Shown here one piece after another: positions 6,657 through 46,842 of a DNA stretch of 54,972 bases. The notes under the pieces are model-generated. The model searched no databases, was not told the origin of the DNA, and was given only the letters and a program-made list of their open reading frames with translations. Source of the DNA: Chrysochromulina tobinii (lineage: Eukaryota). Within the stretch, counting starts at the first letter, position 1. Every line of letters begins with the position of its first letter. Made by a program: the position numbers and the translations under genes. The stretch is taken from NCBI GenBank assembly GCA_001275005.1, contig JWZX01003217.1, positions 1 through 54,972 on the forward strand, written 5' to 3'.

Positions 6657-9600
6657 TCACCGACCACGCCCAGGCCACTTAAGCGGCTCGAGCACCGCGG
6701 CCTTGACTAGCTGCTGTGTCTCCTGCTGCTGCCGCTGCTGGTCCGGTGCGGGTGCAGCGCTCACGGGTGCAGCGTTCACCGGTGCGGCGCTCCCCCTCAC
6801 GGGTGCGATGCGCGTGGGATCGAGATCTGCGGGGGATCTGCGGGAGATCTGCGTGGGATCGAGATCTGCGCGCGCCTGCCGGTAGCCCACCTGGGCCGCG
6901 TAGGGGTCGAGGCCGGGCTGGAGGCGAGCAGCAGCAGCGCGACGGTACTCGGCCTCGCGCCGATACTCAGCCTGCTGCCGGACCGCTGCCTGCTCCTGCT
7001 CGAGGCGGAGTATCGCTAGCTGCCTCTCGAAGTGCTCGGCCTCGGCGCGCTCCGCCGCGCTCATGACGCGCGTGGCGCGCTGCACGGCCAGCAGGCTATC
7101 GAGCTGCTCACGCAACCCATCGAGTTGACGCTCCATCACCGGGACACGCGCCGTGTTGAGCGGATCGCGCGCCTCGTCGCCCAACATGGCGCCATGGGTG
7201 GGGCTGTTGAGCGCCGTGATGAGCGCGGATAGCCGCTTGAGCTCCGAGCAGATCTCGTGCAGCGAGATCTCGTGCAGCGTGGCCTGCACGGCGCCCATTG
7301 TCGACTCGAGGGCGCCCACGCGCTCCTCGAGTTCACTGAGCTCCTCGAGCTGCTGCGCATCGTCCGCCGCCGCCGCCGCCGCCGTGCGGCCCATCACGGC
7401 GCCCGGAACAGCGCCCATCACGGCGCCATCACCGTGCGGCGAGGCGGCTGGCCAGCGAGCGCGGGCGAAGACGCCACCTGGCATGCGACGAGTGGCCGCG
7501 GAGCGCGACGCTTCTCGTGCCGCGAGCTTCGACTCCAGTTGGTTAGGGTCGCGAATGCACTTCCGGCCGCAAGACAAGGGGGGAAGTGTCTTGCGGCCGT
7601 TGATGGTCGGAATGGCGCCGTCCCTGGGCACGGGGACGCCCGGGTGAGGAGGAGGTGCAGCCGCAGCGCCCGCGCCGTGCATGCCGCCAAACTCGAGCCG
7701 CGCCTCGAGCATCGCCGAGATCGACTCGAGCTTGTGCGTCACAAGCTGAGCCTCTTCCCGCGACAGCTGGCCGCGCGACGAGAGGCGCCCTGCCTCGCGC
7801 TCCGTGCGCTCCGCGATCGTGCGCTGCATCACGAGGAGCTTTTGGAGCGCGCGCCGCTCGACGGCATTGGCCTCGGGCCGCGTGAAGACGGTGCGCTTGT
7901 CCTGCTCAAAGGGGCGCATGCCGTTGGCCGAGTGCGCGCGGAAGAATCGGCGAGGCGTCTTCGAAATGTCCTCGAGCGACTGCTCACGCACAAGGCGCAG
8001 CCGCGTCTTGAGCTCGGGCGGCCCGGCGGCGGACGTCCCTGTCCTCGGCCCGTCCGCCTTCTCCCCGGAGGCGGCGCGCTGCTGCATCGCCTGTCGAAGG
8101 CGCTGCGCCTCAAGGCTCGCCTGCGCCACGCGCTTCCACGACGCACGGAGACGCGGCCACGTCATCACAAAGTCGATGGGCAGCACGAGCAGGATGAAGG
8201 GCGCGGGGATCGGGTGCTGGAGCAAGAAGACGGCCACCGACAGCGCCTTGTTCATATTCATGTGCTCACGCGACGCGTCGACGACCTCCGAGTAGCGTGC
8301 GTTGAACATGGCGATCAGCAAGTTGACGAAGAGGATGAGGACGAGCAGGCAGTAGAGCCACAGGAAGAAGGGCGCGACCAGGGCGCTGCCCGGGGAGCCG
8401 GCGATCTCGGCCGGGTTGAAGTAGCCAAAGGTAGCCCAAAAGGGGGCGAAGAAGGGCCCCGCGGCTGATACATCGAGCTCCTGGTTGAACCAAGGGTGGA
8501 GCGGACCCGCGCCATGCTCGGACTGGTAGTGGGGCAGCAGCAGGTTGAGCGCGACGCCGAAGCCCGATCCGATCACGATGACGAGCGGCAGCCAGAAGCG
8601 CAGATCGTACGCCATGCGAGAGGCGGCGATGATCAGCGCGCCGAGCGTCTCCGAGACGGAGAAGATCTCGGTCAGGCTGAAGAAGATGGGGAGCGCGGCG
8701 ATCGCGAGCAGCGTGCGCAGCACCTCGGTCGCCACCGTCCAACCGCAGTTGCCCGCTGGCGCGCCGTGCTGCCAGCCGCCGCCGTGCTGCAGGAAGTAGT
8801 GCTCGCTCTGCGACTGGCCGGGCAGGCTGTCATGGCGTGCACGGATCCGCCCGTCGGCGCGCAGGTCGAGGAACGCGATCAGATCGGTCGCCTCGGCTGC
8901 GGTCAGAGATGCAAAAGGGTCGCCACGCCGAAACCAGAGAGCGCAAGCGAAGAATGCGAGGAGCGAGACGATCGTGAGCGCATCAACCCACTTGTACACG
9001 CTGTACTTGCGACCCCATCCTTGGACCGTGGCGACGAAGAGGGCGAGCTGGTATGCCTTGGCGACGACCCAGATGAAGAGCACCAGGTGTGCCGTGTACA
9101 GGGGCTGGCAGAGCGGCAGAAAGGAGACCCACACGAAGAGGCCGGTGAACGCGTAGTGTGAGACCATGTCGAGCACGCGCTTGACGAGAGGGATTTGCAG
9201 CAGCCCAACGAGATGCTCGTACCGGTGCACCCGCATCGTGAGCACGTGCCCTTTTGCGGTAGGGTCGAACCCCTGCCGGGTGTGCCGTGCACCTTCCTCG
9301 GCGATGGGCCGGATGGGCCACCGGTATAGATCGTTGAGCTCCGTCCAGATCCACGGCCAGTGGATGGGGAAGAAGAGGAGCTGCCAGATCAGGCCGAGCA
9401 CGAGCGTGAGGGGCGCGCTATGCTTCGTGCGCAGCATGATGCGCCCGCACGCGGCCGAGCGCCCATTCCACATCTCCTCGACGAGCGCCTGGCAGTACCG
9501 ATGCGAGATGAACTTCTTGTTCTCAAGCTCGACCGCGACCTCGAAGAGGGACGAGCGCCGGTGGCGCGTACCCAGCTCGGCCGAGTCGCCCTCTGAGGTG

Positions 9601-12600
9601 AGGAGCAGCTTGCGTGCGGTCTCCTGGTCGGCCAACGTGTCGAGCAGCGCGACGGCGTTCGTCTCGAACCATTTCTCGAGGCTGACGAGCTCGTCCGACT
9701 CGGCCGAGAGGGAGACGCGCAGCTTGCGACAGACCTCCTGGCCGATCAGCGCCGCACGCAGCGGAGACACAGTGCGCTCCCAGATGACCTTGACGAACCT
9801 GGCCGCGCCGCAGCAGATGCCCCACACCAGCAAGTCGAAGGCTCGGACGGTCCTCTGGCGCGCGGCGTAGTACTCGAAGCCCACAATGTGCTGGCGCAGC
9901 ATGAGCACATGCTCCTCGCGCCACGGCGTCGTGTCGGGCAGGTCAAACGGCAGGCGCGCACCCAGAGCCGAGGCGGACATGCCAAGTTCTCCAAAGAGCG
10001 TGGAGAGGCTCACTTCGGACACCTTCGCGCCATACTGCAGCAGCAGGTCCACGATGCGCACGTCGAACGAAGGGTCGGTCACGCGCAGCAGCGCCTCCTG
10101 CAGCGCCTCCTGCACCATCTCCGCACGCGCGGCCGCCGAAGTTCCATACGAGCTCGTATGCATCAGCAGCTGATGGAGCACATCGTACCGCCCCCAGCGC
10201 GCCACCAGCGCGACGCCGAGCGCGTGCCCGCCCTTGCCGCTCACCATGTTACTCGACGCGCGCATGAAATCATTGCACGCAGCCTGAAGCAAGAGGCGCG
10301 ACACCTCCAGCCTGATGAGCTTGACGTCCTCCTCGCTCAGTGCATTGACGTCCTCCTTCAGGGCGAGCGCACGCAGCTTCTCAATGCACTCGTCGACCGA
10401 GTTGCTCCTCTCGAGGGCCACCCAGCGCCCACGCACGAGCACATCGACCCCGAGCTTGCCTCCGAACGAGCCACTGCGGCTCCTGTCGCGCCTGTCGCGC
10501 CCAGGCTCGTCACGCTGTGGTGAGCACGTGCATGCAAGACAGGCCATCAGTGGCAATCAACGCACCTGTCGCGCCCATGCTCGTCACGCCCGCCCCGCTT
10601 GCTCTCATGCTCCGCCGCGTGGCAGCTCAGCCGCAGCTCGAGCGTCGTGCCGAGCGATCGAATCGACAGCTGGCGCATCGTGTCGATAGGCTGGTGGCGC
10701 AGCAGCCGCTGCTTCACTGCTTCACAGGCCCACTGCTGCTGTGACGCGTACAGCGTCAGATTCTCGTCGACGTCGCGCCAGCACACACGACTCTCCACTT
10801 TAGGGCTCTCCTCTTTAGCCGTCATCCGCTGAAGCACCGAGATGCGCATGGATAAACCGCGCCAGTTGATCGCCGACGCCGGTGTCTCCGTCGAGATCCA
10901 TAGCTCGTCCTCCGGCTCGTCGTCGTCCGGCTCCTCGTCCGAGTTGGTCGGACCGCCTGTGCGAGCGGCAGCCCCCTTTCGAGAGCTCATCGAGCGCAAG
11001 GTCCTGCCCATGAACGATCTGGCGGACCTGATGCCCATGAACGATCTGGCGGACCGTGACTCGCTCCCCGTGTGTGAGTACGACTGCAGGCGAATCTTGG
11101 AGGAGAGCTCTCGCGACATGTGGAAGTGGACTGCGGTCGTCTCGATCCACGCGTGGTCCGTGTTGCGTGGGTCGTCCACGTAGCCGCGGTACACAATCCG
11201 CGCATCCTCGCTCGAGAGCTCATCGGGCAGGTTGAAGAGCTCGTCCAGGAGCAGGCGCGTCCGATCCCGCGGCTGGCCACGGTAGTTCGCTGCGCGCTGC
11301 GCGAGGCCGGCTTGCGGCTCAAAGGCCTGGCGCAGCGCCTGCGCCAGCGTCTCGCCCTCGCGGATCAGCCGCCCTGGGAGCGATCGGCCATGCCGCGCGC
11401 TGTGGTGAGCACTTGCATGCAAGACAGGTCATCAGTGGCAATCAACGCACCTGGCAGCGACCACTCATCGGAGCCATCAGTACGCTTGACGACCACCACC
11501 TGCAGCTGGTTCGTCGTTGGGTGTAGCCGCGTGACGATCGGGTCGGCCGCGTGGTTGGGTCCCCACTTGCCCAGCAGCCCGCGGCCCGCGAGCCCCGTCC
11601 GCCCTCGCGGGTTGAGCGGTCGGCCACGCCCACCGTTGGGCTCGAGACTTGCGTTGCCCTCTTCGAACTGGAGGGGCCCCTCGAAGGTGAGCCGGCGCTC
11701 GATCCGCTTGGACGTGAGAGCAAACGTCTCCGCGGAGCGCGGGTCGAGTAGCCGTTTGGCGCTGCCCCTCGGGCTGACGACGGGGCTGGACACCTCCTGT
11801 ATCAAATTCTCCATAGATACATGTCGCTGTCTCGGGTCTTCCGGGTCGGCCCAGCGCTGCTGACGCGTCCGGCTGCGAAAGTTGTCGGTCACAGTCGGGT
11901 CGGTGTAGTCCGCCGGAGCGTATCCAGGGAAGGGCACGGACCAAGGCACCTTCTCGTCGGGCACTTGGACGCGGGCCGGATACCTATCGGGCGCGGGTCG
12001 TACGCGCGCTCGCTCGTGCGGCGCGATCTTCTCCGCCACTCGATCGACAAGCTGCCGGTGGCTCGCGTACAGGTTCGCATACCGGTCCTCGGACAGCGGG
12101 TTGATGTCGAGCCAGATGGCGCGCGTGGCGTCATCGCCTGCGCCGAGCGCGAGCTTGTCTCCTGCGAGGCGAGATTGGGGGCGAGATTAGACGGAGATTG
12201 CAGGCGAGATTGGAGGCGAGATTGGGCCGAGATTGGAGGCGAGAGGCGCACCGATCTCGGGCGGGCAGTGGAAGTGGAATGCGGTCGTCTCGATCCACGC
12301 GTGGTCCGTCGTCCGCGGGTCGTCCACGTAGCCGCGGTACACCACGGTGCCGCCCGAGGCGAAGAGCCTACCGGTCGCCTCTTCAAAGAGTCTCTGCCCT
12401 TCTGGGTCGGGAATGTTGCCCACCTCCGCCCTGAACTCGCGCTGGACCGTCTCTGACACCGTCTCTCCCTCGTCCACCATACCTCCAGGAAGGGCCCACA
12501 CGCCCGGCTGGTCGGCACGCTCGATCGCAACCATCTGCAGCTGGTTCGTCGTTGGGTGTAGCCGCGTGACGATCGGGTCGGCCGCGTGGTTGGGTCCCCA

Positions 12601-14604
12601 CTTGCCCAGCAGCCCGCGGCCCGCGAGCCCCGTCCGTCCTCGCGGGTTGAGCGGCAGTCGCTTCTCATGATCCCAGAGCAGCACGCCTTTCGTCTCGTAT
12701 GTCTTGCGCGAGAGTACCTCGGCGATGAGATCGCTGCTCAGTGGCGCGGGCGGGTCGGCCCACTTAGCCTTCGCATGCGCACGTCGCTCTTCGCGCGTGG
12801 CCCCGTGGTTGCAGAACTTGGTCAGCACCGGGTGCTCGTACGTGGGCGGGTGGTAGCCTCCCGCCGCTGTCCAGTCGGCCTCCCATGGCACAAGACCCTC
12901 GTCCGCAATGGGCAGCCGGCGCACGCCTTCGGGGCAGTCCGCGCCCACGTAACGGTCGCGATCGCGCGCCTTAAGGTGCACGGGCGGCTTGGCGGGTTGC
13001 TCGAGGGAGCCCACTGGCTGCGGAACCTTGACGGCGCGGCGCGCCAGCTTGCGCCGCTCGATGTCAGCGTCAGTGCGCAGCTTGCAGCTGGCGACGACCG
13101 CGTTGAGGATGGAAGTCTCGAGAGACTCGGCTTTGGCCATTGAGAAGACGATCATCAGGTCACGCAACGTGCGCTTGTCGAGCGTGTGCGGCGCGGGCGT
13201 GTGCGAGAGTGAGGGCAGCAGCAGTCGCACCGCCTCCTCCACCTTCTCCCGTGGCACCTTGAGCACGTCCCACTGCTCAAGCTGCTCGTGTAGCAGAGTC
13301 GCCCAAAGCTCGACCGACCCCGGCTCTCGCTCCGGATGCTCCTGAACCTTGAGGGCGAAGTCCGCGAGGGCGCGTGCACAGCCGCGTGACTCGCGCACGA
13401 GCACGCAAGGCGTGTGGTTGCTCCAGGTCGTCAGGATCGTATTGAACGTGCCGCGCCCGCCCTGGACCATGAGGAGCACCCATCAGAGGTCATCAGGGTC
13501 ATCCGAGGTCATCAGAGGAGCGCTTACCTGGATAACGAGGAGCACTGAGGGCACCATGAGCTTCTCGACGAGCCGCCGCTCCACCTGGCCACGTAGCTCG
13601 ATCTCAGCACCCCATGCTGGAGCGCGTGCCCCCGGGTCGTCGACGAGGATGAAGTGCGAGTGGTTCATGTCCAGCGCCGACGACGCGCTCGAGTTCTTGA
13701 TCCGCTTGATGTACGGCAGCAGTGGCGGCGGCAGGCGCTCCTCGGGCTTCGCCTGCCGCAGGCTCTCCTGGTTCGTCACGCACCCGAGCGGGGCGATGCC
13801 GATGAGCGGGGTGGCCCATGCGTGTCCCTCGGCGCGCACGTTGGTAGTGGTCCGACTGCGCAACGCGCGCCCAACCAGCTCCATCACGCCCGTGTCCATG
13901 CCGCCCGTGATTACCCACGCGCGCGTCGAGGACGCCGCCGAGTCGATGCCGTCGCGCAGCATATTCTCAAGTCGTGGCTCAAGGTCCATCGCCTGCGCTG
14001 AGCCGCTTACAGTGAGGAGCACGGATGGCACCTGGATGCGCCAGTAAGACAGTAACAGCTTGACAATTGCATCCGCATCCGTGCGCGTCGACACGCCTGC
14101 GAAGCGTGCAGGCTCGTCCATCAGCTCGTCATCGAAAGAGAAGAAGAGGCGGCCGATCTGGTGGATGCCCGTCGCGTAGAGGTTCCCTACGTCGGCATTG
14201 CTCTCTTGCCAGCGCTCTTCGCGGCGGTCCTCCACCTGTTGCTCGCACTGGCTCGACCAGCACCAGCTCTGTGCCAGCAGTGGCTTGGATTGGCTTAGCG
14301 AGTTGTGCGATGCTGGCGCTGTTCGCGGTGAGCTGCCGGCTGGTGTCGCGTCGCCGGAGCTATCTATGCCGAGCAACCTGCCCCCTCCAGCGGTCTTCTT
14401 ATATGAGCCGTCGGGCAACGCACCGTCGGCGAATCTAGTGTGCGTGTCCATGCCGGACGTGGCGCCATCTTCTCTATCAACGTCTCCCGAATCCCTGCCG
14501 GCTTTACTGATTTCTTTGGCAGGCAGACTCGACAGGTTGAGCGGCAGCGCCGGCGTGTTGGTGCGAGGGTGCACGCGGGACGAGTCCCCTCGCTGCCAAT
14601 GCAT
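6657..14604 (-). CDS. TRPM-like cation channel: SLOG - NUDT9-like x2 - MHR3/4 - six-TM ion-transport domain - coiled coil
   Basis: SLOG motifs AWVITGGMDTGVMELVG, LIGIAPLG, LDMNHSHFILVD and VIQGG. Two copies of PLNPRGRTGLAGRGLLGKWGPNHAADPIVTR...YRGYVDDPR.TDHAWIET. MHR4-like LLVWGI..IWE..PLRAAL..KFISHRYCQALVEEMWNG. S6 motif LFVNLLIAMF. ORFs join in frame via introns 13462-13527, 12162-12251, 11374-11450 and 10492-10565. Start codon and extreme C-terminus are uncertain. Confidence 0.85.
10492..10565 (-). mobile_element. Introner-like intron, copy B (74 nt)
   Basis: Same core with 2 mismatches, followed by a 23-nt copy (1 mismatch) of the upstream exon end that supplies the AG acceptor; alternative in-frame acceptor at 10483. 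Confidence 0.7.
11374..11450 (-). mobile_element. Introner-like intron, copy A (77 nt)
   Basis: Core GTGCGTTGATTGCCACTGATGACCTGTCTTGCATGCAAGTGCTCACCACAGCG is near-identical to the intron at 10492-10565; removal restores SLPG-RLIREGET. Confidence 0.7.
12162..12251 (-). other. GT-AG intron (90 nt) built of a CAATCTCGCC minisatellite
   Basis: G|GTGCGCC...CTCGCAG|GA; removal restores NUDT9 C-terminal LGAGDDA..IWLDI...LYASH. Confidence 0.85.
13462..13527 (-). other. GT-AG intron (66 nt) with CTGATGACC filler repeats; its 3' end copies the upstream exon
   Basis: GTGCTCCTCGTTATCCAG|GTAAGC...GTGCTCCTCATGGTCCAG|GGC; contains an in-frame TGA. Confidence 0.85.
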
Positions 14605-14923
14605 GTAACGCGGCGCTCCGTGTTCCGACACGCTGGGCGCGCTTGCCTGTGCGACGGTTTTACGCAAACACGGTCGTTTTCACGCGTGTCGTCTGACGTG
14701 TGAACGTTCACAGCGGCGACAAGCGGAAGTGTTCTCGCTCGCCTTTATGACATAAAATTCCCTGGAAGTCGCTCCCGCATTAGACGAGCTGCGCCAATTA
14801 CTCTACAAGTATTCAATTAGTTTGATTCCCTGAAAGACGCTACTCGCAATAGGCGAGCCGCGCCTTCTTTTGTATTTCCTGGATGTCGCTCTCGGCAAAC
14901 CAGCGTGATCTGATACCTCTATG

Positions 14924-17098
14924 TCACGCCTCAAGCTTGCCCATGAGGCGTGTTGACGGCGCGCCTCTTCTTGTTGACGGGCCGCCACTTCTGCATGTTG
15001 TGATCGCGGTGCTTGCATTGGCAGCAGCCAACGTTTGGCTCTCGCGTTGCTGCACCACACGGCGCTGCTTGTCGAGTTCGAGTCGGCCCGCTTCCTTCCT
15101 GATATTCATCGATTCACGCATCATGTAGATGGCCATTTCCTTGAAGAGTGTCCAGGTTTTGACTGCCTTGTACGCGTTCGGATAGGCGTGGATGAGGTTC
15201 ACAAAGTCCCTCTTGCTGACGGAACTTGTGTGCACGTATGTGTTCGTCACCGCGCGCAGCGGCTTGGCTTTTGTCAGCAACAGATCGGGCCAGCCCCACG
15301 TATCTCCCGGACCGAGCAAACTGGATCTCGTGGATGAGATGCGGTAGTGGACGCTGCCCTGTGAGATGAAGTAGAGGCACTTACCCGGGGGCAATTCCTT
15401 GGGCCCGAAGACGACGGGGCGCATGCTCAGCACTATCTGGCACAGGAAGCCCTTGCGCTCGGCCTCCATCACTCTTTGAAAGCACCCGGAGACGAAGCAC
15501 GGGATCCGCAAGAGCCAGTGCTTGTTGAGCTCCCACGTCACCCTCTGCTTGAGCATGGGCGACAGCTGCTCGATCGCGGCCATGCGCGAATCGTACTTCA
15601 AGACGTCGATCGTGTGGAAGTAGTAGCGGCGTAGCTCACGGGAAATTTCCTTGGAGAGCTTGTACTGGTCGCAGAAGCGGTTTAGCGCGTCGAGCCCCTC
15701 GGTGAACCGTTTGCGGTCTGGGTCGGCCTGCGTGAGCGCGACAATCAAATTGCCGAAGATAACCGTCCACGCGAAGACGCCAAAGAGGAGCATGACGAGT
15801 AGCAGAATGTACTCGGTCGGCTTGAACTGCACCTCCCACTCCGGTTGCAGCGCAGCCGCGTCGGTAGGAGAGGTCGGAGACGTCGATGAGGAGGTCGGAG
15901 AGGTCGAGTAGAAGGGCTTGTAGGGGCCCATTGCCGGCGTGATCGAGTAGCCGGTGAGCAGCTGCACAGACCAGAAGAGGCAGTGGAGGTACCGATAGGC
16001 GACGTCCACACACTCGGCGAGCACCCTACCCTGTGAGTCGGTGAGCAGGCTTCCGTCGGCCTCGACGCCCGCGGGCTTGCAATAGCCAAAGGTGCCGAGC
16101 CACGTGTCGAGAGGTGATTCGAAAAATGTGGTCCAGATGGCAACAATGCAAGCGTATGCGTGCGTGAGCATGCACGTCTGGGCGAGAAGGCTGATGAGCG
16201 TGACGGTCACTGAGTTGAGCGAGATGCGCTCGCGAGCGCGCTGGAACACACGCGAGGCGCGCATGAGCCGCAACAGCTTGACCAAGCGCAGCGCGCGCAA
16301 TGTGCGCAGCGCCTTGGCGCCGCCCGCATCGGGCCCTTCATTCGAAATGACCGGCAGAATGTCAAAAATGGACGGAAAGATCGAGATGACGTCGAGGAAG
16401 AACCAGCCGCGCACGTAGTTGCGTGCAAGCGCACGCGGATTCATCTCCCAGGCGCTCTTGCCTACAGGATCGCCCGCCTTCGGAACGATTGGCGTCATGA
16501 TGAAGAATGCGAAGATCACATCTAGGATGAAGATGCAATCGACGATACGGTTGATCACAAAGAGCGGTTCGTCGGCGCGAGTGGGTGGAGGTAGGAAACC
16601 GACCTCGAACGGCGTCAGCGCCGCAGTATACATGAGCGCAAGCCCGCCGATCACATCCCAGGCGGGAAAGATGGTCATGTTACTCAGCACCTTGAGGGCC
16701 ACTTGGTTCAAGACGTTCCTGGCGTTGATTTCTGCCCTGTCAAGCACCCGAGTCCCTTGTGGCCTACGGGAACGGATGTCGAGGCGCTTGCGTGCCACCA
16801 TTCTCCTTCGCTGCTCTCTCACAAAGGTGCCAGTCGGGTCAATTATGTACCAAGGAACCTTCTGAACACCGTCCAGCTCCTTGTTGATCAGCTTTGCTTC
16901 GATGACATCAGACATGCTCCGCTCTTCCTTCGGCACCAACGCTTGAGGCACCTCTTCCTCGTCAAGCTGCGCCTTCGCGTCCGGCTGCGAATCAGGCTCA
17001 GTCACAGGGCCAAACAGTGCCGTACTGTTTGTGCTTCTGTTTTGAGTTCCTGCCGTGCTCGACCCTCTTGCAAGGGATACCTTACAACCTCTCCTCAT
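14924..17098 (-). CDS. Cyclic-nucleotide-binding-domain ion channel (KCNH/CNG/HCN superfamily)
   Basis: S1-S3 WD...Y.A..TPFEVGF, IVDCIFILD, NYVRGWFFLDVIS; S4 LRTLRALRLVKLLRLMR; C-linker LSKEISRELRRYY; CNBD LYFISQGSV..LGPGD. Confidence 0.85.
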   Translation of the reverse strand: MRRGCKVSLARGSSTAGTQNRSTNSTALFGPVTEPDSQPDAKAQLDEEEVPQALVPKEERSMSDVIEAKLINKELDGVQKVPWYIIDPTGTFVREQRRRMVARKRLDIRSRRPQGTRVLDRAEINARNVLNQVALKVLSNMTIFPAWDVIGGLALMYTAALTPFEVGFLPPPTRADEPLFVINRIVDCIFILDVIFAFFIMTPIVPKAGDPVGKSAWEMNPRALARNYVRGWFFLDVISIFPSIFDILPVISNEGPDAGGAKALRTLRALRLVKLLRLMRASRVFQRARERISLNSVTVTLISLLAQTCMLTHAYACIVAIWTTFFESPLDTWLGTFGYCKPAGVEADGSLLTDSQGRVLAECVDVAYRYLHCLFWSVQLLTGYSITPAMGPYKPFYSTSPTSSSTSPTSPTDAAALQPEWEVQFKPTEYILLLVMLLFGVFAWTVIFGNLIVALTQADPDRKRFTEGLDALNRFCDQYKLSKEISRELRRYYFHTIDVLKYDSRMAAIEQLSPMLKQRVTWELNKHWLLRIPCFVSGCFQRVMEAERKGFLCQIVLSMRPVVFGPKELPPGKCLYFISQGSVHYRISSTRSSLLGPGDTWGWPDLLLTKAKPLRAVTNTYVHTSSVSKRDFVNLIHAYPNAYKAVKTWTLFKEMAIYMMRESMNIRKEAGRLELDKQRRVVQQRESQTLAAANASTAITTCRSGGPSTRRGAPSTRLMGKLEA

Positions 17099-17617
17099 TC
17101 GCCGACAGCTAGAAGCTGGTCACTAAAATACCTGATGGTGACCAGGGCTTTTGGCCGGAAGAGCGGAAGACAGGCCTGGACGGTCCGGATGATCGGAGCG
17201 GCCCAAAGGATCGGAGCGGCCCAAAGGAAAAGTGCCAAAACACGACGAAGCGTCTCGAGGCTCAACCTCCGTACCGGTATACCGGTAAAAAGACACCGGG
17301 GTAGCCCACCGGTCTAGACCGGTAAGACCGGTAACGCGACGTGCTGGTATGAAAACGACTAGGTGAGGCTGCTCTACGATGGTGGCGAGACGCGAGGCGC
17401 GCATTTCCATGTTATCGCACACGCGTCCCCCCGAAGCTTCCTCTCACGTACAATACCACGTTTCTAACATCTCCACCGGGTCTCCAACGCCATCCAAGCC
17501 GCCGTAGAATGGTTGCCGGTACCCAGCATGTCGTAACGTTCACAAACTCGTTCACACACCATCCCGTCCGTCGGCCGTGCAGCGCGGCCTCCTGCTGCAG
17601 AGGGCAACTTCCGGGAC

Positions 17618-20186
17618 ATGACGTGTATCGATGAGTACACCCTCGAAAAGCGCCTCGGGCAGGGTGCGATGGGCACCGTCCACCTGGTGACGCGCAAGAG
17701 AGACGGGCGGCAGCTCGCCCTCAAGCGTGTCAACTTTGCGGATCTGTCACACGAGGAGCGCAAGCAGACGCTGCTCGAGGTCGCGCTGCTCTCTCGCCTG
17801 CGCCATCCGAATATCATCGAGTACGTCGAACATTTCCATGACGGCGACGATCTATGCATCGTCATGGAGGTCGCACCCGATGACGTGCTCAAGGTGGTGC
17901 GGCGTGCAAAAGCAGCGGGCACGCCGCTGCCCGAGGAGCAGCTGCTGAGCATCCTGTCGCAAGTGGCATCGGCGCTGCACTACGCGCACAGCTGTCGCGT
18001 GCTTCACCGCGATGTAAAACCGGCCAACGTGCTGCTCACGGCGGACGGCACGCCCAAGCTCTCCGACTTCGGCATCAGCTGTACCGTGATGCAACACGAG
18101 CTGTCCCTCGGGCGCGCGCTGGTGAAGCGTGCGGACGGCGTGCGCGAGACGGAGTTCGAGGCGGCGGCAGACATCCGAGTGGAGCTCAAGGGCACGCCCG
18201 CATACATGGCGCCCGAGCTCTTCAACCACAAGATGGAGATGAACACCACGTACTCGGCCGCATCGGACGTGTGGGCGCTCGGCGTCATGATGTTCGAGCT
18301 CATGCTGTTTCGTCTGCCGTATGAGGGCGCGTCGATGATGTCGATCGTGTACAAGCTCGTCAACAACCCGTCGCAGAACGCCCTCACCGACGCGCGCGGC
18401 GCGCACGGCCGCGGCCACACCCAGTACTCCCAGGCCATGTACGCGTGCGTCGAGGCGATGCTGCATAAGCGGCCGCAGCAGCGCGCGACGCTGCCAGAGC
18501 TACTTTCGCGCCAGGTGCTGCTGCATCATGCGCGCGGCGGCGGAGCGCCCAAGCGCTTCATCGACCTGCTCGAGGAGGGCGCTGCCCAGATGAGCGGCCG
18601 GCTACCCGACGTATACTCGTTTGGACGCGGTGGTACTCGCCCTCGCCTGCGCGACGACTTGATGGGTCTCCAGATTCGGCAAGTAGCCTGCGGCGCGGCG
18701 CACTGCGCGGTGGTCGCCGTCTCGGGTGAGGTGTTCACTTGGGGGAGGAACGAGTGCGGCCAGCTTGGCCACGGCGACAGGAAGCAGCTCAGCCTACGGA
18801 GGCGCGTGCTTTTCGCCGAGGAGGTCGAGGGCGCCGTCGTGGTGCGCGGCGTCGCGTGCGGCTTCGCGCATGCAAGTGCTCACCACGGCGTCCTATTCCC
18901 CACAGGTGCGCGGCGTCGCGTGCGGCTTTGCGCACACGATTGCGATCGCCCAGCACGGGCGGCGCCTGTACGCGTGGGGCAGCGACAAGCACGGGCAGCT
19001 CGGGCTGGGGAGTGGCGCCTTTTGCCGCGCGGACGTGGGTCTGCAGGTCGCGATCCACGAGGGCGAGCTAAGCATTGAAGGCGTGTGGCGGCCGATTCAC
19101 TGGGGCACGCTCCAACCGACCGACGTGGCGCGAGCGCGAGTGATCGCTGTCGAGGAGGGCTTCGGAGGCGCGGTGACCCTGAGCGCGCTATCCGAGGAAG
19201 GCGAGAGCACGGAGATCGAGATCGAGATCGGCAATCCACGGCTGATGGGTTTGCGTGATCCGATGGATTGCGTGCTCACGCCGACGGCGCTGCGGACTGT
19301 CCTCGATGACGTGGCAGAGGCGTGGGCCGTCGTGGCGTGCGGCGATCGGCACTCGGCCGCCATCACCACTGCGGGATCCGCGTACGCATGGGGCAGCGCC
19401 GATGACGGACGGCTCGGGGTGCTCCTTGTCCCAGGGGAGAGCCGCGTGCTGGCCCCTCGGAAGCTGCCACTCTCGCTGCGAGTGCCCGAGACAGCGCGCG
19501 AGCTCGAGGGCCACTTGGAGGGCCACTTGGCGATGGTGGACTGCGGCGACGAGTTCACGTGCTACGTGGACGAGGCGGGCCGGCTGTGGGGTTGCGGCGC
19601 CAACTACGACGGGCAGCTTGGCATCGACGATCCGGACGTGGGGGAGGTTGGCACGCCGATGCGGCTGATTCCCTGGGGTCCCACTGACCCGGACGACGTG
19701 GGGATTGACTTCATTGCGTGCGGCGCGACGCACGTGGCGGCGGCCGATACGTTGGGGAGGCTCTGGCTGTGGGGCGGGCGGTTCGGCATGCCGCCGACGA
19801 AGGTTCGCTTGCCAGGCCGTTACGAGGACCCAGCTGACGAGAACGCCCTGGGCAGCCCTTGCGCGCTGGTCGCGTGCGGCGCGGACCTCGTCTTCACCGT
19901 GACGGACGACGGCGACGCCTTCACCTGGGGCGAGGGCAGCCACGGCCGCCTCGGCCTCGACGACGGCGCCCAATCTCATGAGGCGCCGCAAAGTCTTGCG
20001 TCACTCTCGGCGCCGCCAGTGAGGGTGCTGATGGTCGCGTGCAGCAAATCGGTCGCCAGCGCGGACGAGGGCCCGGCGGTGCTCGTGCTAGGCGAGCCCC
20101 ACGAAAGCGGCGCCCTCCACGATCAGTTCAAGCGCTTCCTACTCGCCGACAATGACCAGCGATGGGACGGGCGTCCCGCCCGTTGA
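17618..20186 (+). CDS. NIMA-related kinase with RCC1 repeats (NEK8/NEK9-like)
   Basis: LGQGAMG, ALK, LRHPNIIEY, HRDVKPANVLL, DFG, GTPAYMAPE, SDVWALG; RCC1 repeats VACG..H, WG.N..GQLG. Two ORFs joined by intron 18842-18905. Confidence 0.9.
18842..18905 (+). mobile_element. Intron (64 nt) sharing the GCATGCAAGTGCTCACCAC core; its 5' half copies the downstream exon
   Basis: GTGCGCGGCGTCGCGTGCGGCTT(C/T)GCGCA occurs at 18842 and again at 18906; ends ...CCCCACAG; removal joins the two ORFs in frame. Confidence 0.7.
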
Positions 20187-20542: not shown

Positions 20543-22516
20543 TCACGCGGCCGCGGGTGCACCGGTTTCGGACGGCGGCTCCTCAAACGCGAGCTTCTCG
20601 ATCATCTCGCAGAGGGCGTGCCAGCCGACCGCGGCCTCGGGGTGCTCCATGATCCGAGCGGCGAGCACGTCGATCGCCTCCGGCATCACGCCCCACTCCT
20701 CGACGCACTTGGGCCATAGGAAGCCGAGCAAGACGTCCTTGTCGCACGAGTCTTGCCCCCCGCTCGCGATATCGAAGGCGAGGTGCAGCGGGATCATGAG
20801 CTCGTCGAGCAGGAACATGAAGGACGCTTTGATGGACGCGATCGACTCGTCTCGCAGCATGCGCTCGATCGACTGCTCGCGCGTCATCTCGAGCATGCAG
20901 TTGAAGAAGAGGTCGGCGAACTCGTTGTAGTCGATGGCGCCGTCGTCGTTCTCGTCAGCCGCGAACATGAGCTTCTGTATCTGATGCTCGTTCAGCCCGA
21001 GCTTCGACTCGAAGAGACACTTTTGGAACTCGGCGCGGTCGAGCTTGCCTGAGCCGTCGGCGTCGTACGCCTGGAAGACGTTGCGCGCCATGTTGGTGAG
21101 CCGCTTCTGCTCCTCGGGCGTGATCGCCTGGAGCGGCGTGATCTTCGCCATCTTTGTCACCATGTGCCGCTTGCGCTCGAGCGCCGGGTCGCTCAGCTTA
21201 ATGATCATGCGCGCCGCCGGCCCGACGAAGTTGGAGATCATCACCTTGCCCTCGGAGTCGACGGGCGCGTCGGCGAGCACGGTCTGCAGCTGGATGGGCG
21301 TGAGCTTGACGAGGTCGGCCTCGATCATTGCGGCCTTGAGCATCTTGGTCGTCAGCCGGCCGTCCTCCTCCGCATCGTAGCTCGCCAGGTGCATCGAGAG
21401 GTACTCGACCAGGTCGTCCGACTCGCTCTGCAAGAAGCCGAGCTTCAGAGCTTCGACCAGGTAGTTGAACATGAGCGGCGCGAACTCGTTGTACTCGATG
21501 GTGCCGCTCTCGTCCTCGTCGATGAAGGACATGATCATCTTGATCTCACGCGGCGTCAGCTTCGTCGCGCCTAGCTGCAGCGACTTGAGGCATTCCACAA
21601 TCTCGCCGCGCTCGAGCCGGCCGCTGTTGTCCTTATCGAAGGAGCGGAAGGCGCTGAGAAGCATCTCGACGATCTCCTCCTCACCGAGCCCGTGGATGAC
21701 CTCGCGTGCCATGAGCTCGGCCTCCTCGTTGCGCACCGCCTCCTCCGCCGCGTTCAGCTGGCGCAGCCGCATCGTCTGGATGATGTCCGCGCCGAGCGGC
21801 GCGAACTCGGCGTACTCGATCTTGCCGTCGCCGTTGGCGTCCGCGAGCATCAGGATCTGGCGCACGCTGCTCTCGTCGAGGCCGAGCTGCGAGGTCTCTA
21901 GAAGCGTGCGGAACTCCTTCGGGTCCAGGTACCTGTTCCCGTCCGCGTCGCCGTCTTTGAAGATCGACACGAGAAGCTGCTCCAGCTCCGCGTCCGACTC
22001 AAACATTTGCTGCAGCGCCGCGGCCTGCGCGTCGGCGAGGTCGTTAGCGGCCTCCATGAGGCGCTCCTGGTTCTCATCGGCGCCGTCAAAGGCCGCGTCC
22101 GCGATCGCCTGCGCCGCCTTGTACTTGCCCGGCACGAAGGCGAGCGGCTGCGGCAGCCTCCCCTTGTCGGCAAACATGGCAGAGCACTCGAGCACGATCG
22201 CCTTGCGGCGGATGGCTGCGTCGAGCCACTGCTTGCGGATCGGCCGCTCACCCGGAAAGCGATTCTTCTGCTTCTCGATAATGTACGACACCCTCGGCGC
22301 CTCACCCTCTCCGCGCGGTTTCACGGTGAACGTGGCCGTCGCCACCAGCTCTGGCACGGGCTTGGTGGGCTGCGGCATCGAGAAGATGACGAGAAATTCA
22401 TGGCCCTGCTCGGCGCGGTCTTTGACGTGCCGCACGTGGTGCACGTACGAACCCAGGGCCCACGACTGACATAAGCCGTCCACCGCCTCGAAGGCTTTCT
22501 TCGGGTCCATGCTCAT
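20543..22516 (-). CDS. Multi-EF-hand Ca2+-binding protein with N-terminal AKAP28(AKAP14)-like domain
   Basis: EF loops DADGNRYLDPKE, DANGDGKIEYAE, DKDNSGRLERGE, DEDESGTIEYNE, DADGSGKLDRAE, DENDDGAIDYNE plus degenerate ones. N-terminal FSMPQPTKPVP..ATATF..SYIIE..FPG....KQWL resembles AKAP28. Confidence 0.85.
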   Translation of the reverse strand: MSMDPKKAFEAVDGLCQSWALGSYVHHVRHVKDRAEQGHEFLVIFSMPQPTKPVPELVATATFTVKPRGEGEAPRVSYIIEKQKNRFPGERPIRKQWLDAAIRRKAIVLECSAMFADKGRLPQPLAFVPGKYKAAQAIADAAFDGADENQERLMEAANDLADAQAAALQQMFESDAELEQLLVSIFKDGDADGNRYLDPKEFRTLLETSQLGLDESSVRQILMLADANGDGKIEYAEFAPLGADIIQTMRLRQLNAAEEAVRNEEAELMAREVIHGLGEEEIVEMLLSAFRSFDKDNSGRLERGEIVECLKSLQLGATKLTPREIKMIMSFIDEDESGTIEYNEFAPLMFNYLVEALKLGFLQSESDDLVEYLSMHLASYDAEEDGRLTTKMLKAAMIEADLVKLTPIQLQTVLADAPVDSEGKVMISNFVGPAARMIIKLSDPALERKRHMVTKMAKITPLQAITPEEQKRLTNMARNVFQAYDADGSGKLDRAEFQKCLFESKLGLNEHQIQKLMFAADENDDGAIDYNEFADLFFNCMLEMTREQSIERMLRDESIASIKASFMFLLDELMIPLHLAFDIASGGQDSCDKDVLLGFLWPKCVEEWGVMPEAIDVLAARIMEHPEAAVGWHALCEMIEKLAFEEPPSETGAPAAA

Positions 22517-22675
22517 GGAACGGCGCCTCCCTGCCGAAACGACACTCTATTTCGCTCGAGCGCACCCCGCAGACATGCGCAGATGGCTTTCCACTACATC
22601 TAAGGGCCGCTGTCATCACTGTCGCTGAGAACCAAAGTCTGATGAAGTTTACATACTATTTGGTTTGCGGCGAGA

Positions 22676-32854: not shown

Positions 32855-35800
32855 CTACGCCTTGACCACGTTCCGGACTCGGCCCAGTCCGAGCTCTTTC
32901 AGCCTACGGATGGTGCGGGTCTCGAGCTCGCGCGCGGCCGACTTGGACTCGACCTCGACGAGCACACACTCCAAGAGCCGGTCAGCATGGCGCCGGCGGT
33001 GTTGCTGCAGCCGCCGCCCGATACTATCCGACTCGCCCACGTACAGCGCGGGTGCGACGGCGCTGCCGCTCACCTGGGCGCCCTCCTTGGCACCGAGCTG
33101 GAGCACGTACACGCAAGAGCGCCCATTCAACCGTGGCGGCGGTTGCCAGTCGGCGTGAACCTGAACGAGGTGGTCGCTGCCACTGAGCGCGCGTAGTACC
33201 TCACCTGCCGCGCACAGCTGACTCTTTCTCTGCTCGTCTGCCTTTGCGGCCGCTTCGACGTCGAGAATGGTCGCCGCCCACTCCTCCGCTGCTGTGCCAG
33301 TGCTGCCCTCACCCTCCTCCTCCTCCTCCTCCTCGCCGCCTTCCACCTCGCCGCCCTCCTCCTCGGCACGGGCTTTGCTCATGCCTGCCAGCAGAGCCTC
33401 GGCGCGCTCGACCAGGTCGGCGGGCAGCCCAGCGCCGCGCGCAACGTGGAGCGCGAGCGAGTTGCGGCTCATGCCCTCGGAAAGGGTGAAGCTCATGGCG
33501 ATACGGCCATCGGCGGCGGCCTCGGCTACCGGCAGGCACATCCAGCGGAGCGAGGGCAAGGTCGGCAGGCGCGCGAGCAGTGACTCGAGCTCATGCAGAT
33601 GCGTCGCGAAGACGGCGCTCATCTGGTGCCGGTCGAGCCACTCGAGCAGCGCTGCGGAGAGGGCAGTGCCCTCGTTCGTCGAGGTGCCCCGTCCGATCTC
33701 GTCGAGCATGAGAAGGGATCGACGCGTCCCCTCCCTTGTCATCAGCTGCAGGTCATCCATCTCTTGCGCAAACGCCGACTTGCCCTCGGCGGGCGCGTCG
33801 AAGGACGTTGTACGAAGGAAGAAGGCGTCGTAGCGCGGCACCGTCGCTGAACGCACGGGAGCCAGCAGACCGCTGTTGGCGAGGAGCGCCGCGACGAGCA
33901 TCGAGCGCATCAGCGACGACTTGCCCGCCATGTTGGGCGCAGTAAGCAGCCACAGACCGTCCCATGCGAGGGTGTTTGGCGTGGCTGCGTGCTGCGGGAG
34001 CCAGTATGGCCACACCCCCTCGAGCTCGAGCATGCGGTCCGCGTCGGACGCCGTCTTGAGCAAAGGCAGCGCCCATCGCTGCTCGAGGGCATATCCGACG
34101 TGTGCGGCCAGCGTGGTCGAGAGCAGCACCCAGTGTGCGGCTGTCACGAGCGTGGGCATAGCGGGCGCCAGCTCGTCGCACAGCCGCTGCAGATGCTCCT
34201 TGACGGCGCGCTCGGCACAGTCGCAAGCCTCGAGGTAGCGCACCGTGGCCTCGCGCATCCGTACGCTCAAGTACCGGTTGGCAAGCACGCGCTTGTTGCG
34301 ATCGCGGGCGGGCTCGAGGTGCGCTGGCGTGGGTGGTGAGCCTGGGCCCCGGACCCCATCGCCGCCTCCAAGATCGTCGCCTTCGCCATCGCCGCTATCG
34401 CCGTAGGCGGCCGCCGCGGCCGCGCTCCTGCGCACGTAGAGCTTGCCTGTGCCTCTGCGCAGGTAGATTGCGTTGTTGATGGTGTCGTGCACGACGATCT
34501 GCCCTGTGGCACGCACATCTTCGGCGACGCCGTCACAAAGCTCGCGTGCAGCGGCCTCGAGGGCCGCGTACTCGCCGGCCACCCTCTCCCGCCGAATGAG
34601 CTTACGGAAAGTACCCTCATTACGCTTGAAGAAGCCCTCCGGGATGAGGCCGTGCGCGTCCGTGCACGGCTCGTCGGCGGAGGTGGCCGCGCTGTCGGCC
34701 ACAAGACCCGTGATGTTCTCGTGCGCGCGGTGCGCGCTCTCGGCGAGGTGCGATGGGGAGAGTCGCAGGCCCGACTCCTCGGCGACGAGCGCGAGGAGCG
34801 CCTTGTTCAAACGCGCGAGCTCCGGCGAGCGTAGCGCCGCGTGCACTGCCGCGAGCACCTGCCGCAGCTCGAGGAAGAGCGGCGCGTTCGCTTGTCGCGC
34901 GAGGAGCAGCGAGACGAGCTTGCCTATCGGCACGGGGCGCGCCCTCGGCAGGGCGGTCGATAGCGCCACGAGTTCCGCGCACGCGTCGTGCATCGCGTCC
35001 GCCACCGACGGTCGCGGCGGGAGCAGCAGCCAGCGCCGGAGCAGATGCACGCACGCCGCAGGAGCGTCCGGCGGCAGCACGGAGCGCATCAGGTCGGGTA
35101 CGCCCGGCGCGGGCAGCAGCCCAATCTGCGTGGCGGTCGACATGAATAACGGTGTGGGCGGCGCGTCAAGACCCTCGCCCCGGGAGGGCAGTTGCCGAAA
35201 GGAGCGACCGTCCACCTGCGCTTCCTCCGCGACGAAGTCGATCATCGCCTGTGGGAAAGCGCCAGGGCTTGGCACGTTGAGCGCACGCTTCTCCAGGTGC
35301 GCGAGCGCGCGCGGGAGTGAGATGTCCCCGAGGTCGTTGATGAGGAGCGGCGGCGCGTGTGGACGTGCCGACAGCAGCGCGTGCAGCGCCGCGGGCGAGA
35401 GCCGCTGGTACAGCCGCCACGCACGCGAGTCGAGATGCACGAGCACGACCATGTAGCCGCTCGCGGTGGCGCTGACGCCCGCAAAGGGCGGCGGTTCGGC
35501 GTAGTCGATCTGGTAGGGCGAGAGGCACGCCTCGTAGTGATACACGGGCGAGGCGGGCGAGACTACTTGTGCAAGTACGCGCTGCTTCAGCTTGCGGAAG
35601 CGCCCCTCGCCTGTGCCGGCAGGCGCGACCTCCTCGTAGACCGCGACTGTGAGGCCCGCGGAAGTGAGCGCATCGAGCGTCGCCTGCACGTTCTGGACGG
35701 GACATCCGGCACGGCATTTGCTGCCCATAGGGTTGAGCCCCGCCCACTGCACAAGCATGAGCGCATCGAACCCGAACGCCTCGTAGAACTCACCCACACG

Positions 35801-36091: not shown

Positions 36092-36317
36092 GATGAGGAT
36101 CGCCGATACATGTACTTCGCCGATATGGATTGGTGACCTCAAATTCCCCACTACAACCTGTTTGGCGTAGGGCAATGCAGTGTCCATTGCACTTGTGAAG
36201 GAGAGCGTGAGTGGTGTGTCTCGTTGAACACGTGGCGCTCCCTGGCGTTCTGCGGGACCGATTTCATGTCGACGGCTTCGACTGCTTGGTTTGAGGAGCT
36301 AAGCAAACTTTCCGCCA

Positions 36318-46635: not shown

Positions 46636-46842
46636 TTTCATAAAAACTCGTCACAAATGATGATGTCGGGGGGAAGAGATTGCTGAAAAGGGCTCAAAAA
46701 GGGCACAGCGAGAGTTTCTGTCAGGGGCCCTGGAGGGTGTGTGAGGGTGTGAGGGGTGGTTTTTTTCGTGCTGAACGAGGGAAAAAGTATGAATTTTGTG
46801 TTTCCATGAAGAGCACAGAGGCGGCCGCGGAAGAGCGTACAG

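What the first reader, a model, noticed from the sequence alone, without database searches (positions are those of the whole stretch)
11320..12490. The two Nudix boxes differ: one near-catalytic, one degenerate
Seen: domain 1 reads GGMVDEGETVSETVQREFRAEV; domain 2 reads GRLIREGETLAQALRQAFEPQ and has a low-complexity insert before its last strands. Established: active NUDT9 has GGMVDPGE...REFGEE, and catalytically dead human TRPM2 has RIL in place of REF. Inference: domain 1 may hydrolyse ADP-ribose (one of the two Glu is replaced by Ala) while domain 2 only binds it, which would put both states seen in TRPM2 evolution into one chain.
Basis: partly seen in the sequence, partly recalled or inferred. 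Interest (0 to 1): 0.75.

Follow-up and report, generated by a model that had tools for sequence, protein, structure and literature searches.

The report
TRPM channel with twin Nudix domains
This expressed gene encodes a TRPM-type ion-channel protein whose ADP-ribose-cutting domain sits in the front half instead of at the tail and is doubled; one copy likely still cuts ADP-ribose and the other likely only holds it, a layout shared by a whole group of unnamed, probably algal, relatives.

Summary
RNA contigs confirm all four introns, including 11374-11450, so domain 2's box is degenerate as read. Domain 1 keeps every residue the choanoflagellate TRPM2 structure names for catalysis (two Mg-binding Glu, Asp base). 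The Ala replaces the middle Glu, which is not a named ligand but is rarely lost (195 of 200 boxes keep it). Domain 2 lost both Glu, the box Gly and the base loop, and keeps the pocket residues.

The larger finding is the architecture. Both NUDT9-H domains sit inside the N-terminus, between MHR1/2 and MHR3, and none is found at the C-terminus. Nineteen such channels form one side of a 100/99 branch. Among 24 tandem relatives, domain 1 has the full catalytic set in 13 and domain 2 in none; the other 11 deviate in domain 1 too. Domain 2 is not the human state: it keeps pocket residues that human TRPM2 lost.

Likely mechanism: ADPR opens the channel at MHR1/2, domain 1 degrades it, and domain 2 is a non-catalytic binder or scaffold. 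No activity was tested. I found no description in nine literature searches. New variant of a known kind; interest 0.7.

The parts
6657..14604 (-). TRPM-like gene, five exons (to 13528; 13461-12252; 12161-11451; 11373-10566; 10491-6657), about 2546 aa from the first ATG at 14604. Residue numbers in this report count from the open frame at 14679.
   Evidence: Open spliced frame. Junctions in RNA contigs. RNA contigs of 5 of 6 runs end at 14644-14651, a weak hint of the 5' end.
13096..14130 (-). SLOG / MHR1/2 domain; W356 (13614-13612) and R363 (13593-13591) match srTRPM2 F268 and R275 of the agonist ADPR site
   Evidence: PF18139 E 4e-38; own HMM; motif comparison; PMID-less preprint 10.1101/2023.03.16.533055 section 5
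12025..12927 (-). NUDT9-H domain 1, predicted active ADPR pyrophosphatase
   Evidence: 1q33 E 5e-39, nvTRPM2 E 3e-32, srTRPM2 E 2e-29; residue map
12424..12483 (-). Nudix box 1: G711, R725, E726, F727, A729 (middle Glu replaced), E730
12130..12132 (-). D798, equivalent of the srTRPM2 catalytic base D1460 (in exon 3, after the 90-nt intron)
10697..11976 (-). NUDT9-H domain 2, predicted pseudo-enzyme; keeps W891, D994, R1014, D1092, R1094
   Evidence: orthologue P0215 folds like NUDT9 (1qvj TM 0.69)
11312..11371 (-). Degenerate box 2: Gly to R1026, Glu to A1041, Glu to Q1045
   Evidence: near-identical box in orthologue P0233
11374..11450 (-). 77-nt intron just before box 2; holds a high-copy repeat
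10793..11083 (-). Exonic low-complexity insert (about 95 aa) in place of the catalytic-base loop of domain 2
   Evidence: shorter inserts at the same place in P0215 and P0342
12535..12654 (-). Tract of domain 1 nearly identical to 11500-11619 of domain 2 (likely gene conversion), ending before the box
   Evidence: 40 of 40 aa and 38 of 39 degenerate codons identical, 17.6 expected
11500..11619 (-). Matching tract in domain 2
9462..10226 (-). MHR3-like start and MHR4 region, resuming after the insertion
   Evidence: PF25508 E 4e-4, below its cut-off
8235..9200 (-). Transmembrane channel domain with pore, S6 and TRP-like helix; S2-S3 calcium site looks degenerate
   Evidence: Ion_trans E 0.003, below its cut-off
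6657..8234 (-). C-terminal tail (coiled-coil-like, low complexity), no NUDT9-H
   Evidence: no hit at E up to 10 with the NUDT9-H HMM

Best explanation
This is an expressed TRPM-family channel gene with two NUDT9-H domains inserted between MHR1/2 and MHR3 and none at the C-terminus; ADP-ribose likely opens it at MHR1/2, domain 1 likely hydrolyses ADP-ribose with Mg2+ to end the signal, and domain 2 is a predicted pseudo-enzyme that likely binds ADP-ribose without cutting it and so would tune gating. Shown: gene structure, splicing, architecture, residue states, family-wide direction of the asymmetry, and one channel clade. Inferred: channel activity, agonist site, activity of domain 1 (about 0.7), inactivity of domain 2 (about 0.93), ligand binding by domain 2 (about 0.55). 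Likely history: one catalytic domain moved into the MHR2-MHR3 linker, was then duplicated in tandem, and the second copy lost catalysis.
For: Splicing: introns skipped in 4, 6, 3 and 3 of 6 RNA runs and 0 of 2 DNA runs. Domain 1 has W, D, R, E, E, D, R, D at srTRPM2 1264, 1330, 1360, 1386, 1390, 1426, 1428, 1460, and Met at 1372 as in NUDT9 and nvTRPM2. Domain 2 has A and Q at the two Mg Glu, R at the box Gly, and no base loop. Box mutations cut nvNUDT9-H kcat to about 1% or 0.1% with KM within twofold (PMC6461439), and NUDT9 E230I/F231L keeps nanomolar ADPR binding (PMC7612441). Relatives: first Glu kept in 16 of 23 domain 1s and 1 of 23 domain 2s, while domain 2 keeps acid-1330 in 21 of 24, R1360 in 22 of 24, D1426 in 21 of 23 and R1428 in 22 of 24. 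In most relatives domain 2 is no closer to its own domain 1 than to others, so that retention is not just copying. The insertion point is exact against nvTRPM2 and srTRPM2. The channel-only tree splits 19 N-type from 21 C-type rows at 100/99, with the single-domain P0021 outside the 18 tandem rows at 97/92. MHR1/2 keeps the aromatic and Arg essential in srTRPM2.
Against: No biochemical or electrical data. The middle Glu is kept in 195 of 200 matched boxes and the closest orthologue P0208 has it, so the Ala could slow or stop domain 1 in this gene; no single mutant of that Glu was found in the passages read. In 11 of 24 relatives domain 1 also lacks the full set (3 by one residue, 8 by more), so 'one live, one dead' is not universal. 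P0143 domain 2 keeps both Glu, though it has Asp at the box Gly and Glu at the base. P0210 has two identical non-canonical boxes. D994, D1092 and R1094 of this gene lie in tracts that look converted. Across the family domain 2 mostly lacks the adenine-stacking Trp (7 of 23 keep it), and the kept residues may partly be structural. The S2-S3 calcium site looks degenerate here (ligand positions recalled), so gating may differ from TRPM2. The order of events rests on long-branched P0021 and an unrooted tree; test_one_clade was not run.
Confidence: 0.5

Rival explanations
1. Domain 2 binds no ligand. It is a structural spacer that holds active domain 1 in place and carries the return path to MHR3.
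For: The linker between domain 1 and domain 2 is short and of near-fixed length in most relatives. The orthologue fragment folds with pTM 0.75. Many kept residues are fold residues. The adenine-side Trp is lost in 16 of 23 domain 2s. Conversion could explain the kept pocket in this gene.
Against: R1360, D1426, R1428 and acid-1330 are named ligand contacts and are kept at about 90% in domain 2s that show no sign of conversion. This gene's domain 2 keeps W891 and R1014 outside the converted tracts.
Confidence: 0.22
2. In this gene domain 1 is also dead or very slow because of the Glu-to-Ala change, so both domains only bind and the channel resembles the both-degenerate relatives.
For: The middle Glu is kept in 195 of 200 boxes and 16 of 16 canonical C-terminal domains. 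11 of 24 relatives deviate in domain 1. The double mutant of the last two Glu cuts kcat to about 0.1%.
Against: The two Glu named as Mg ligands and the Asp base are all present. PMC6461439 names only the first and third Glu as structural or metal-binding. The same Ala box stands in the 4 full-length exon-2 members listed from the gene's own cluster, so it is not a sequencing error.
Confidence: 0.18
3. Domain 2 is a sensor for a different ligand, such as the product ribose-5-phosphate, and feeds back on domain 1 or on the gate.
For: Family-wide, domain 2 keeps the ribose and beta-phosphate contacts (1330, 1360, 1426, 1428) but mostly loses adenine-side W1264 and nearby positions. In srTRPM2, product binding to NUDT9-H reshapes the channel.
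Against: This gene's domain 2 keeps the Trp and a hydrophobic residue at 1372. There are no binding data.
Confidence: 0.1
4. The second domain or its degenerate box is an artefact of assembly or of a wrong splice.
For: The two domains share a 120-nt tract with one mismatch, and contigs break there.
Against: Junctions are confirmed in RNA, there are no variant letters, and the shared core has double depth. 0 of 101 alternative splices restore a box. 24 divergent relatives have the same tandem.
Confidence: 0.01

Closest known systems
Invertebrate and choanoflagellate TRPM2 chanzymes (srTRPM2 8SR7, nvTRPM2 6CO7)
   Same: SLOG/MHR1/2 with the ADPR-site aromatic and Arg, MHR3/4, TM domain, and a NUDT9-H domain with two Mg Glu and the Asp base.
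   Different: Their single NUDT9-H is C-terminal. Here there are two, inside the MHR2-MHR3 linker, and the tail has none. The predicted SLOG plus domain 1 pose of an orthologue does not superpose on theirs (rmsd 16-17 A over about 570 residues). The calcium site looks degenerate. Separate branch on the channel tree.
Vertebrate TRPM2 NUDT9-H (catalytically dead ADPR sensor)
   Same: Domain 2 has lost the first Mg Glu and the catalytic base, and keeps the Asp-x-Arg pair.
   Different: Human NUDT9-H lost W1264, F1372 and D1330 and binds ADPR in a reversed pose; domain 2 keeps W, L and D. Different substitutions and an independent loss. Pose of orthologue SLOG plus domain 1 versus human: rmsd 13-14 A.
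NUDT9 (mitochondrial ADPR pyrophosphatase, 1Q33/1QVJ)
   Same: Best sequence match to domain 1 (E 5e-39). Orthologue models match its fold (TM 0.77 and 0.69).
   Different: A soluble single domain with box REFGEE; domain 1 has REFRAE and is embedded in a channel.
C-terminal-Nudix TRPM-like proteins of Prymnesium parvum and unnamed relatives (P0008, P0086 group)
   Same: One of the two C-type groups on the channel tree; their NUDT9-H domains fall among the domain 1s on the quick domain tree.
   Different: Ordinary order, with one C-terminal NUDT9-H.

Membership tests
TRPM/TRPS clade | N-terminal SLOG (MHR1/2) domain | tested here: met
   PF18139 E 4e-38; orthologue model vs 7AOV Z 35, rmsd 2.7, 311 aligned
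TRPM/TRPS clade | MHR3/4 followed by a TRP-type membrane domain and TRP helix | tested here: met
   Own HMMs from 33 TRPMs: MHR4 58 bits, TM 104 bits; S6 and TRP helix align. Pfam hits are below cut-off.
TRPM/TRPS clade | Forms a tetrameric cation channel | not testable with these tools
   Needs expression and recording
TRPM2 / TRPM-beta chanzyme | NUDT9-H domain at the C-terminus | tested here: not met
   No hit in aa 2047-2571 at E up to 10; both copies precede MHR3
TRPM2 / TRPM-beta chanzyme | ADPR-site residues in MHR1/2 (srTRPM2 F268, R275) | tested here: met
   W356 and R363
TRPM2 / TRPM-beta chanzyme | S2-S3 calcium site (Glu, Gln, Asn, Asp; positions recalled, not found in the text searched) | tested here: not met
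   Only the Asp is kept; Leu, Phe and Lys stand at the others, in a gappy alignment. Many N-type relatives keep the site.
TRPM2 / TRPM-beta chanzyme | Placement inside the holozoan TRPM2-like clade | tested here: not met
   11 holozoan rows form their own 100/100 branch; the window lies in the 19-row N-type group
NUDT9-type ADPR pyrophosphatase (domain 1) | Two Mg-binding Glu and the Asp base | tested here: met
   E726, E730, D798
NUDT9-type ADPR pyrophosphatase (domain 1) | Full box consensus REUXEE | tested here: not met
   Middle Glu is A729; 1 of 200 matched boxes has Ala, the gene's own
NUDT9-type ADPR pyrophosphatase (domain 1) | Substrate-pocket residues (W1264, D1330, R1360, F/M1372, D1426, R1428) | tested here: met
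NUDT9-type ADPR pyrophosphatase (domain 1) | Measured ADPR hydrolysis | not testable with these tools
   Needs an assay
Vertebrate-type dead NUDT9-H (domain 2) | Loss of the first Mg Glu and of the base | tested here: met
   A1041; base loop replaced by the insert
Vertebrate-type dead NUDT9-H (domain 2) | Loss of W1264 and D1330, giving the reversed ADPR pose | tested here: not met
   W891 and D994 are kept
Vertebrate-type dead NUDT9-H (domain 2) | ADPR binding required for gating | not testable with these tools
   Needs ITC and patch clamp

The most novel reading that the evidence does not exclude
A clade of TRPM channels rebuilt its ligand layer: it moved the Nudix enzyme into the MHR2-MHR3 hinge, duplicated it and split the work, so that one chain carries an agonist site, an eraser and a dedicated dead sensor wired in series with the gating path. 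Domain 2 would be an independently evolved gating sensor for ADPR or its product ribose-5-phosphate, a second natural run of the enzyme-to-sensor switch seen in vertebrate TRPM2, while the freed C-terminus took on EF-hand or calpain-III modules.
Probability: 0.3. Interest if true: 0.85.

Novelty: new variant of a known kind. Interest (0 to 1): 0.7.

Why it matters
In the papers read, TRPM and TRPS channels carry NUDT9-H at the C-terminus, and enzyme versus dead sensor is a difference between species. Here a whole clade has the domain in the hinge that links the ADPR clamshell to the gate, in two copies with opposite catalytic states. That gives a within-chain comparison for an open question: why TRPM2 kept a dead Nudix domain and how such a domain becomes a gating part. 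Each domain can be expressed alone, and natural single, asymmetric and doubly degenerate members exist as controls. It also points to ADP-ribose signalling through ion channels in a probably algal lineage, where none of the papers found describe it.

Tried and rejected
Alternative splice restoring a box: 0 of 101 in-frame pairs, and none seen in RNA. Assembly artefact: rejected. Insert as a hidden intron: rejected, spliced RNA contigs run through it. Idea that relocated domain 1 takes the usual NUDT9-H place on MHR1/2: not supported; the P0001 fragment model superposes domain by domain but not jointly (rmsd 13-17 A; TM 0.40 to 8E6V). That model is a monomer fragment of a stand-in, so this is weak either way. 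One origin of all domain 2s: unresolved; the careful domain tree did not finish and the quick tree needs 3 changes for domain 2 with an open backbone, although domain 1 and domain 2 subtrees mirror each other (6 rows left out as truncated or very divergent). Naming the organism: no genome is held, and no N-type relative carried a species name; 'algal or haptophyte-like' is inferred from the small-intron, GC-rich gene and the Prymnesium-containing C-type group (support 77), not shown. ESM Atlas gave no answer. The 2015 SLOG survey by Burroughs and colleagues could not be read and may mention such architectures. Three look-ups of earlier findings were empty. Complex prediction was not used: halves of one chain tend to pass by likeness and ligands are not scored. 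Three DNA runs with no shared words were not used.

Full report
Gene. The region belongs to one minus-strand gene of five exons. Joining them at GT-AG introns of 66, 90, 77 and 74 nt gives an open frame of 2571 codons, about 2546 aa from the first ATG at 14604. Residue numbers below count from the open frame at 14679. Six RNA runs and two DNA runs were laid, of 18 holders listed. The four introns are skipped by contigs of 4, 6, 3 and 3 of the 6 RNA runs and of neither DNA run. These are contigs, possibly from one campaign, and none spans the whole gene, so they show the junctions but not a full transcript or its level.

Observation. The intron 11450-11374 is real, and none of 101 in-frame alternative donor-acceptor pairs gives a canonical box. 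The insert in domain 2 is exonic.

Residue map. I used srTRPM2 (P0203) numbering and the residues named in bioRxiv 10.1101/2023.03.16.533055 (passages and sections 5, 7, 9 read): W1264 and F1372 stack the adenine, D1330, D1426 and R1428 hold the terminal ribose, R1360 and R1428 the beta-phosphate, E1386 and E1390 bind Mg, and D1460 is the base. Domain 1 has all of them, with Met at 1372 as in NUDT9 and nvTRPM2. Its Ala stands at 1389. PMC6461439 (passages) names the first and third Glu as the structural or metal-binding ones. Domain 2 has Arg at the box Gly, Ala and Gln at the two Mg Glu, and an insert of about 95 residues where the base loop should be. It keeps W891, L1027, D994, R1014, D1092 and R1094. 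Box mutants of nvTRPM2 lose catalysis but not KM, and NUDT9 E230I/F231L keeps 16 nM binding (PMC7612441, passages), so a dead box with a live pocket is plausible. Human NUDT9-H lost W1264, F1372 and D1330 and binds in a reversed pose; domain 2 is therefore not the human state.

Architecture. Pfam and my own HMMs give SLOG (aa 184-506), NUDT9-H (563-833), NUDT9-H (850 to about 1250), MHR3/4, TM (1725-2046), and no NUDT9-H in the tail. In nvTRPM2 the last helix of MHR2 is followed within about ten residues by the first MHR3 helix; here about 875 residues lie between the matching motifs. Of 123 proteins with a NUDT9-H hit plus SLOG or channel parts (near-duplicates and fragments included), 43 have it before the channel, 80 after, and none both. 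Fragments cannot show a C-terminal copy, but the 19 N-type proteins with a full TM region also lack it.

Family asymmetry. I scored 24 tandem relatives, one per 90% cluster (P0143 and P0147 in place of P0007 and P0048). Left out were two single-domain proteins (P0021, P0054), three truncated after domain 1 (P0004, P0037, P0093), cluster duplicates, and the hits, which were read by hand. The set Gly-1371, Glu-1386, Glu-1390, Asp-1460 is complete in domain 1 of 13 of 24 and in domain 2 of 0 of 24 (one domain 2 is cut off before the box). In 11 relatives domain 1 deviates too: P0150, P0156 and P0160 by one residue, eight by more. The nearest exception in domain 2 is P0143, which keeps both Glu. 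P0210 has two identical non-canonical boxes. Domain 2 keeps acid-1330 in 21 of 24, R1360 in 22 of 24, D1426 in 21 of 23, R1428 in 22 of 24, but W1264 in only 7 of 23. Within the window's subgroup the altered box is itself conserved: P0233 is nearly identical, and P0001, P0209 and P0215 have Lys at the box Gly. P0215 and P0342 have inserts at the same loop. The search began from this gene's domain 1, so distant or differently built members may be missed.

Gene conversion. Domain 1 aa 654-693 and its partner in domain 2 are identical at 40 of 40 residues and 38 of 39 degenerate codons (17.6 expected from codon usage); aa 758-782 match at 20 of 22 codons (11.7 expected). Between them, across the box (aa 694-735), only 5 of 12 match (6.0 expected). 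Copying thus appears to homogenise the flanks and stop at the box. P0002 shows the same in the first tract; most relatives do not. Pocket residues inside the tracts are not independent evidence for this gene, but their retention in unconverted relatives is.

Trees. On MHR4 plus TM alone, 19 N-type rows are split from 21 C-type rows at 100/99 (careful, LG+G4, two long rows left out; the quick tree with them gave 99). Single-domain P0021, which has a canonical box, lies outside the 18 tandem rows at 97/92. This suggests relocation first and duplication second, but the tree is unrooted and P0021 is long. The quick domain tree shows mirrored domain 1 and domain 2 subgroups with an open backbone.

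Structure. The spliced protein could not be folded, so orthologues stood in. P0001 (47% identical over exon 2; SLOG, domain 1, most of domain 2) gave pLDDT 82 and pTM 0.75. Its parts match MHR1/2 (7AOV Z 35, rmsd 2.7) and NUDT9 (TM 0.77), but SLOG plus domain 1 together superpose on choanoflagellate or human TRPM2 only at 13-17 A. P0215 (domain 2 with insert) matches 1QVJ at TM 0.69, the insert forming a helix and a low-confidence loop.

Other sites. MHR1/2 keeps W356 and R363, matching F268 and R275, which are essential for ADPR activation in srTRPM2. The S2-S3 calcium site looks degenerate in this gene and in P0342 and P0343 (ligand positions recalled; one search found no mention of them), though many N-type relatives keep it.

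Mechanism. ADPR likely binds MHR1/2 and opens the pore. Domain 1 likely clears ADPR, as in invertebrate chanzymes. Domain 2 likely binds without cutting; since it connects directly to MHR3, it is placed where it could affect gating. All three steps are inferred. Joint confidence 0.5. Rivals: scaffold only 0.22, both dead 0.18, product sensor 0.1.

Novelty. Nine full-text searches (listings seen) found no account of an internal or tandem NUDT9-H in TRPM. Passages of PMC13143021, PMC7306681 and 10.64898/2026.06.15.732245 describe it as C-terminal; passages of 10.1101/2024.03.18.584035 and PMC4974056 add nothing on it. No supplement was read, those of bioRxiv are closed, the 2015 SLOG survey was not held, and subscription papers are not covered, so a mention may exist. 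Verdict: a real feature, a new variant of a known kind, interest 0.7.

Noticed in passing
window 10513-10568 and 11398-11453: Two introns of the gene share a 56-nt element at 96%. DNA depth in that bin is about 11,000-13,000 against 40-80 beside it, so it is a high-copy repeat, Introner-like (label recalled). The 3' ends of three introns repeat the end of the upstream exon (23, 16 and 13 of 24 nt; the fourth 7 of 24).
   Followed up: partly
window 12535-12654 / 11500-11619 and 12268-12342 / partner in exon 4: Likely gene-conversion tracts between the two domains that stop at the Nudix box.
   Followed up: yes
window about 9000-9100 (S2-S3): Calcium-site residues look lost in this gene and in P0342 and P0343, but kept in many N-type relatives.
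   Followed up: partly
P0149, P0150, P0152, P0156, P0158, P0160; P0154, P0005; P0206: N-type relatives carry other modules: EF-hands (C-terminal in P0149), calpain domain III (C-terminal in P0154), and a cNMP-binding domain inside the first Nudix domain of P0206.
   Followed up: partly
P0021, P0054, P0310, P0214: Channels or fragments with a single N-terminal NUDT9-H: canonical in P0021 and P0214, degenerate in P0054, altered in P0310. P0214 and P0310 may be N-terminally cut tandem forms.
   Followed up: partly
window 11580 and 12615 (loose ends): RNA contigs match the shared tract and then diverge, in all six RNA runs, which suggests another expressed NUDT9-H gene in the same culture.
   Followed up: no
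window 14924-17119 (-): A second ion-channel gene (Ion_trans E 8e-21) lies directly upstream on the same strand.
   Followed up: no
window 17537-19078 (+); 20543-22546 (-); 32855-36298 (-); 46810-48801 (+): Kinase with RCC1 repeats; EF-hand protein with an AKAP28 domain; MutS-family protein; 6-phosphofructo-2-kinase/phosphatase.
   Followed up: no
P0010, P0013, P0019, P0027, P0038; P0164-P0167; P0224: NUDT9-H also occurs fused to PF02714 membrane proteins, inside about 2900-aa multi-enzyme proteins with NAD-synthase and phosphoribosyltransferase domains, and as a channel-free tandem pair.
   Followed up: no
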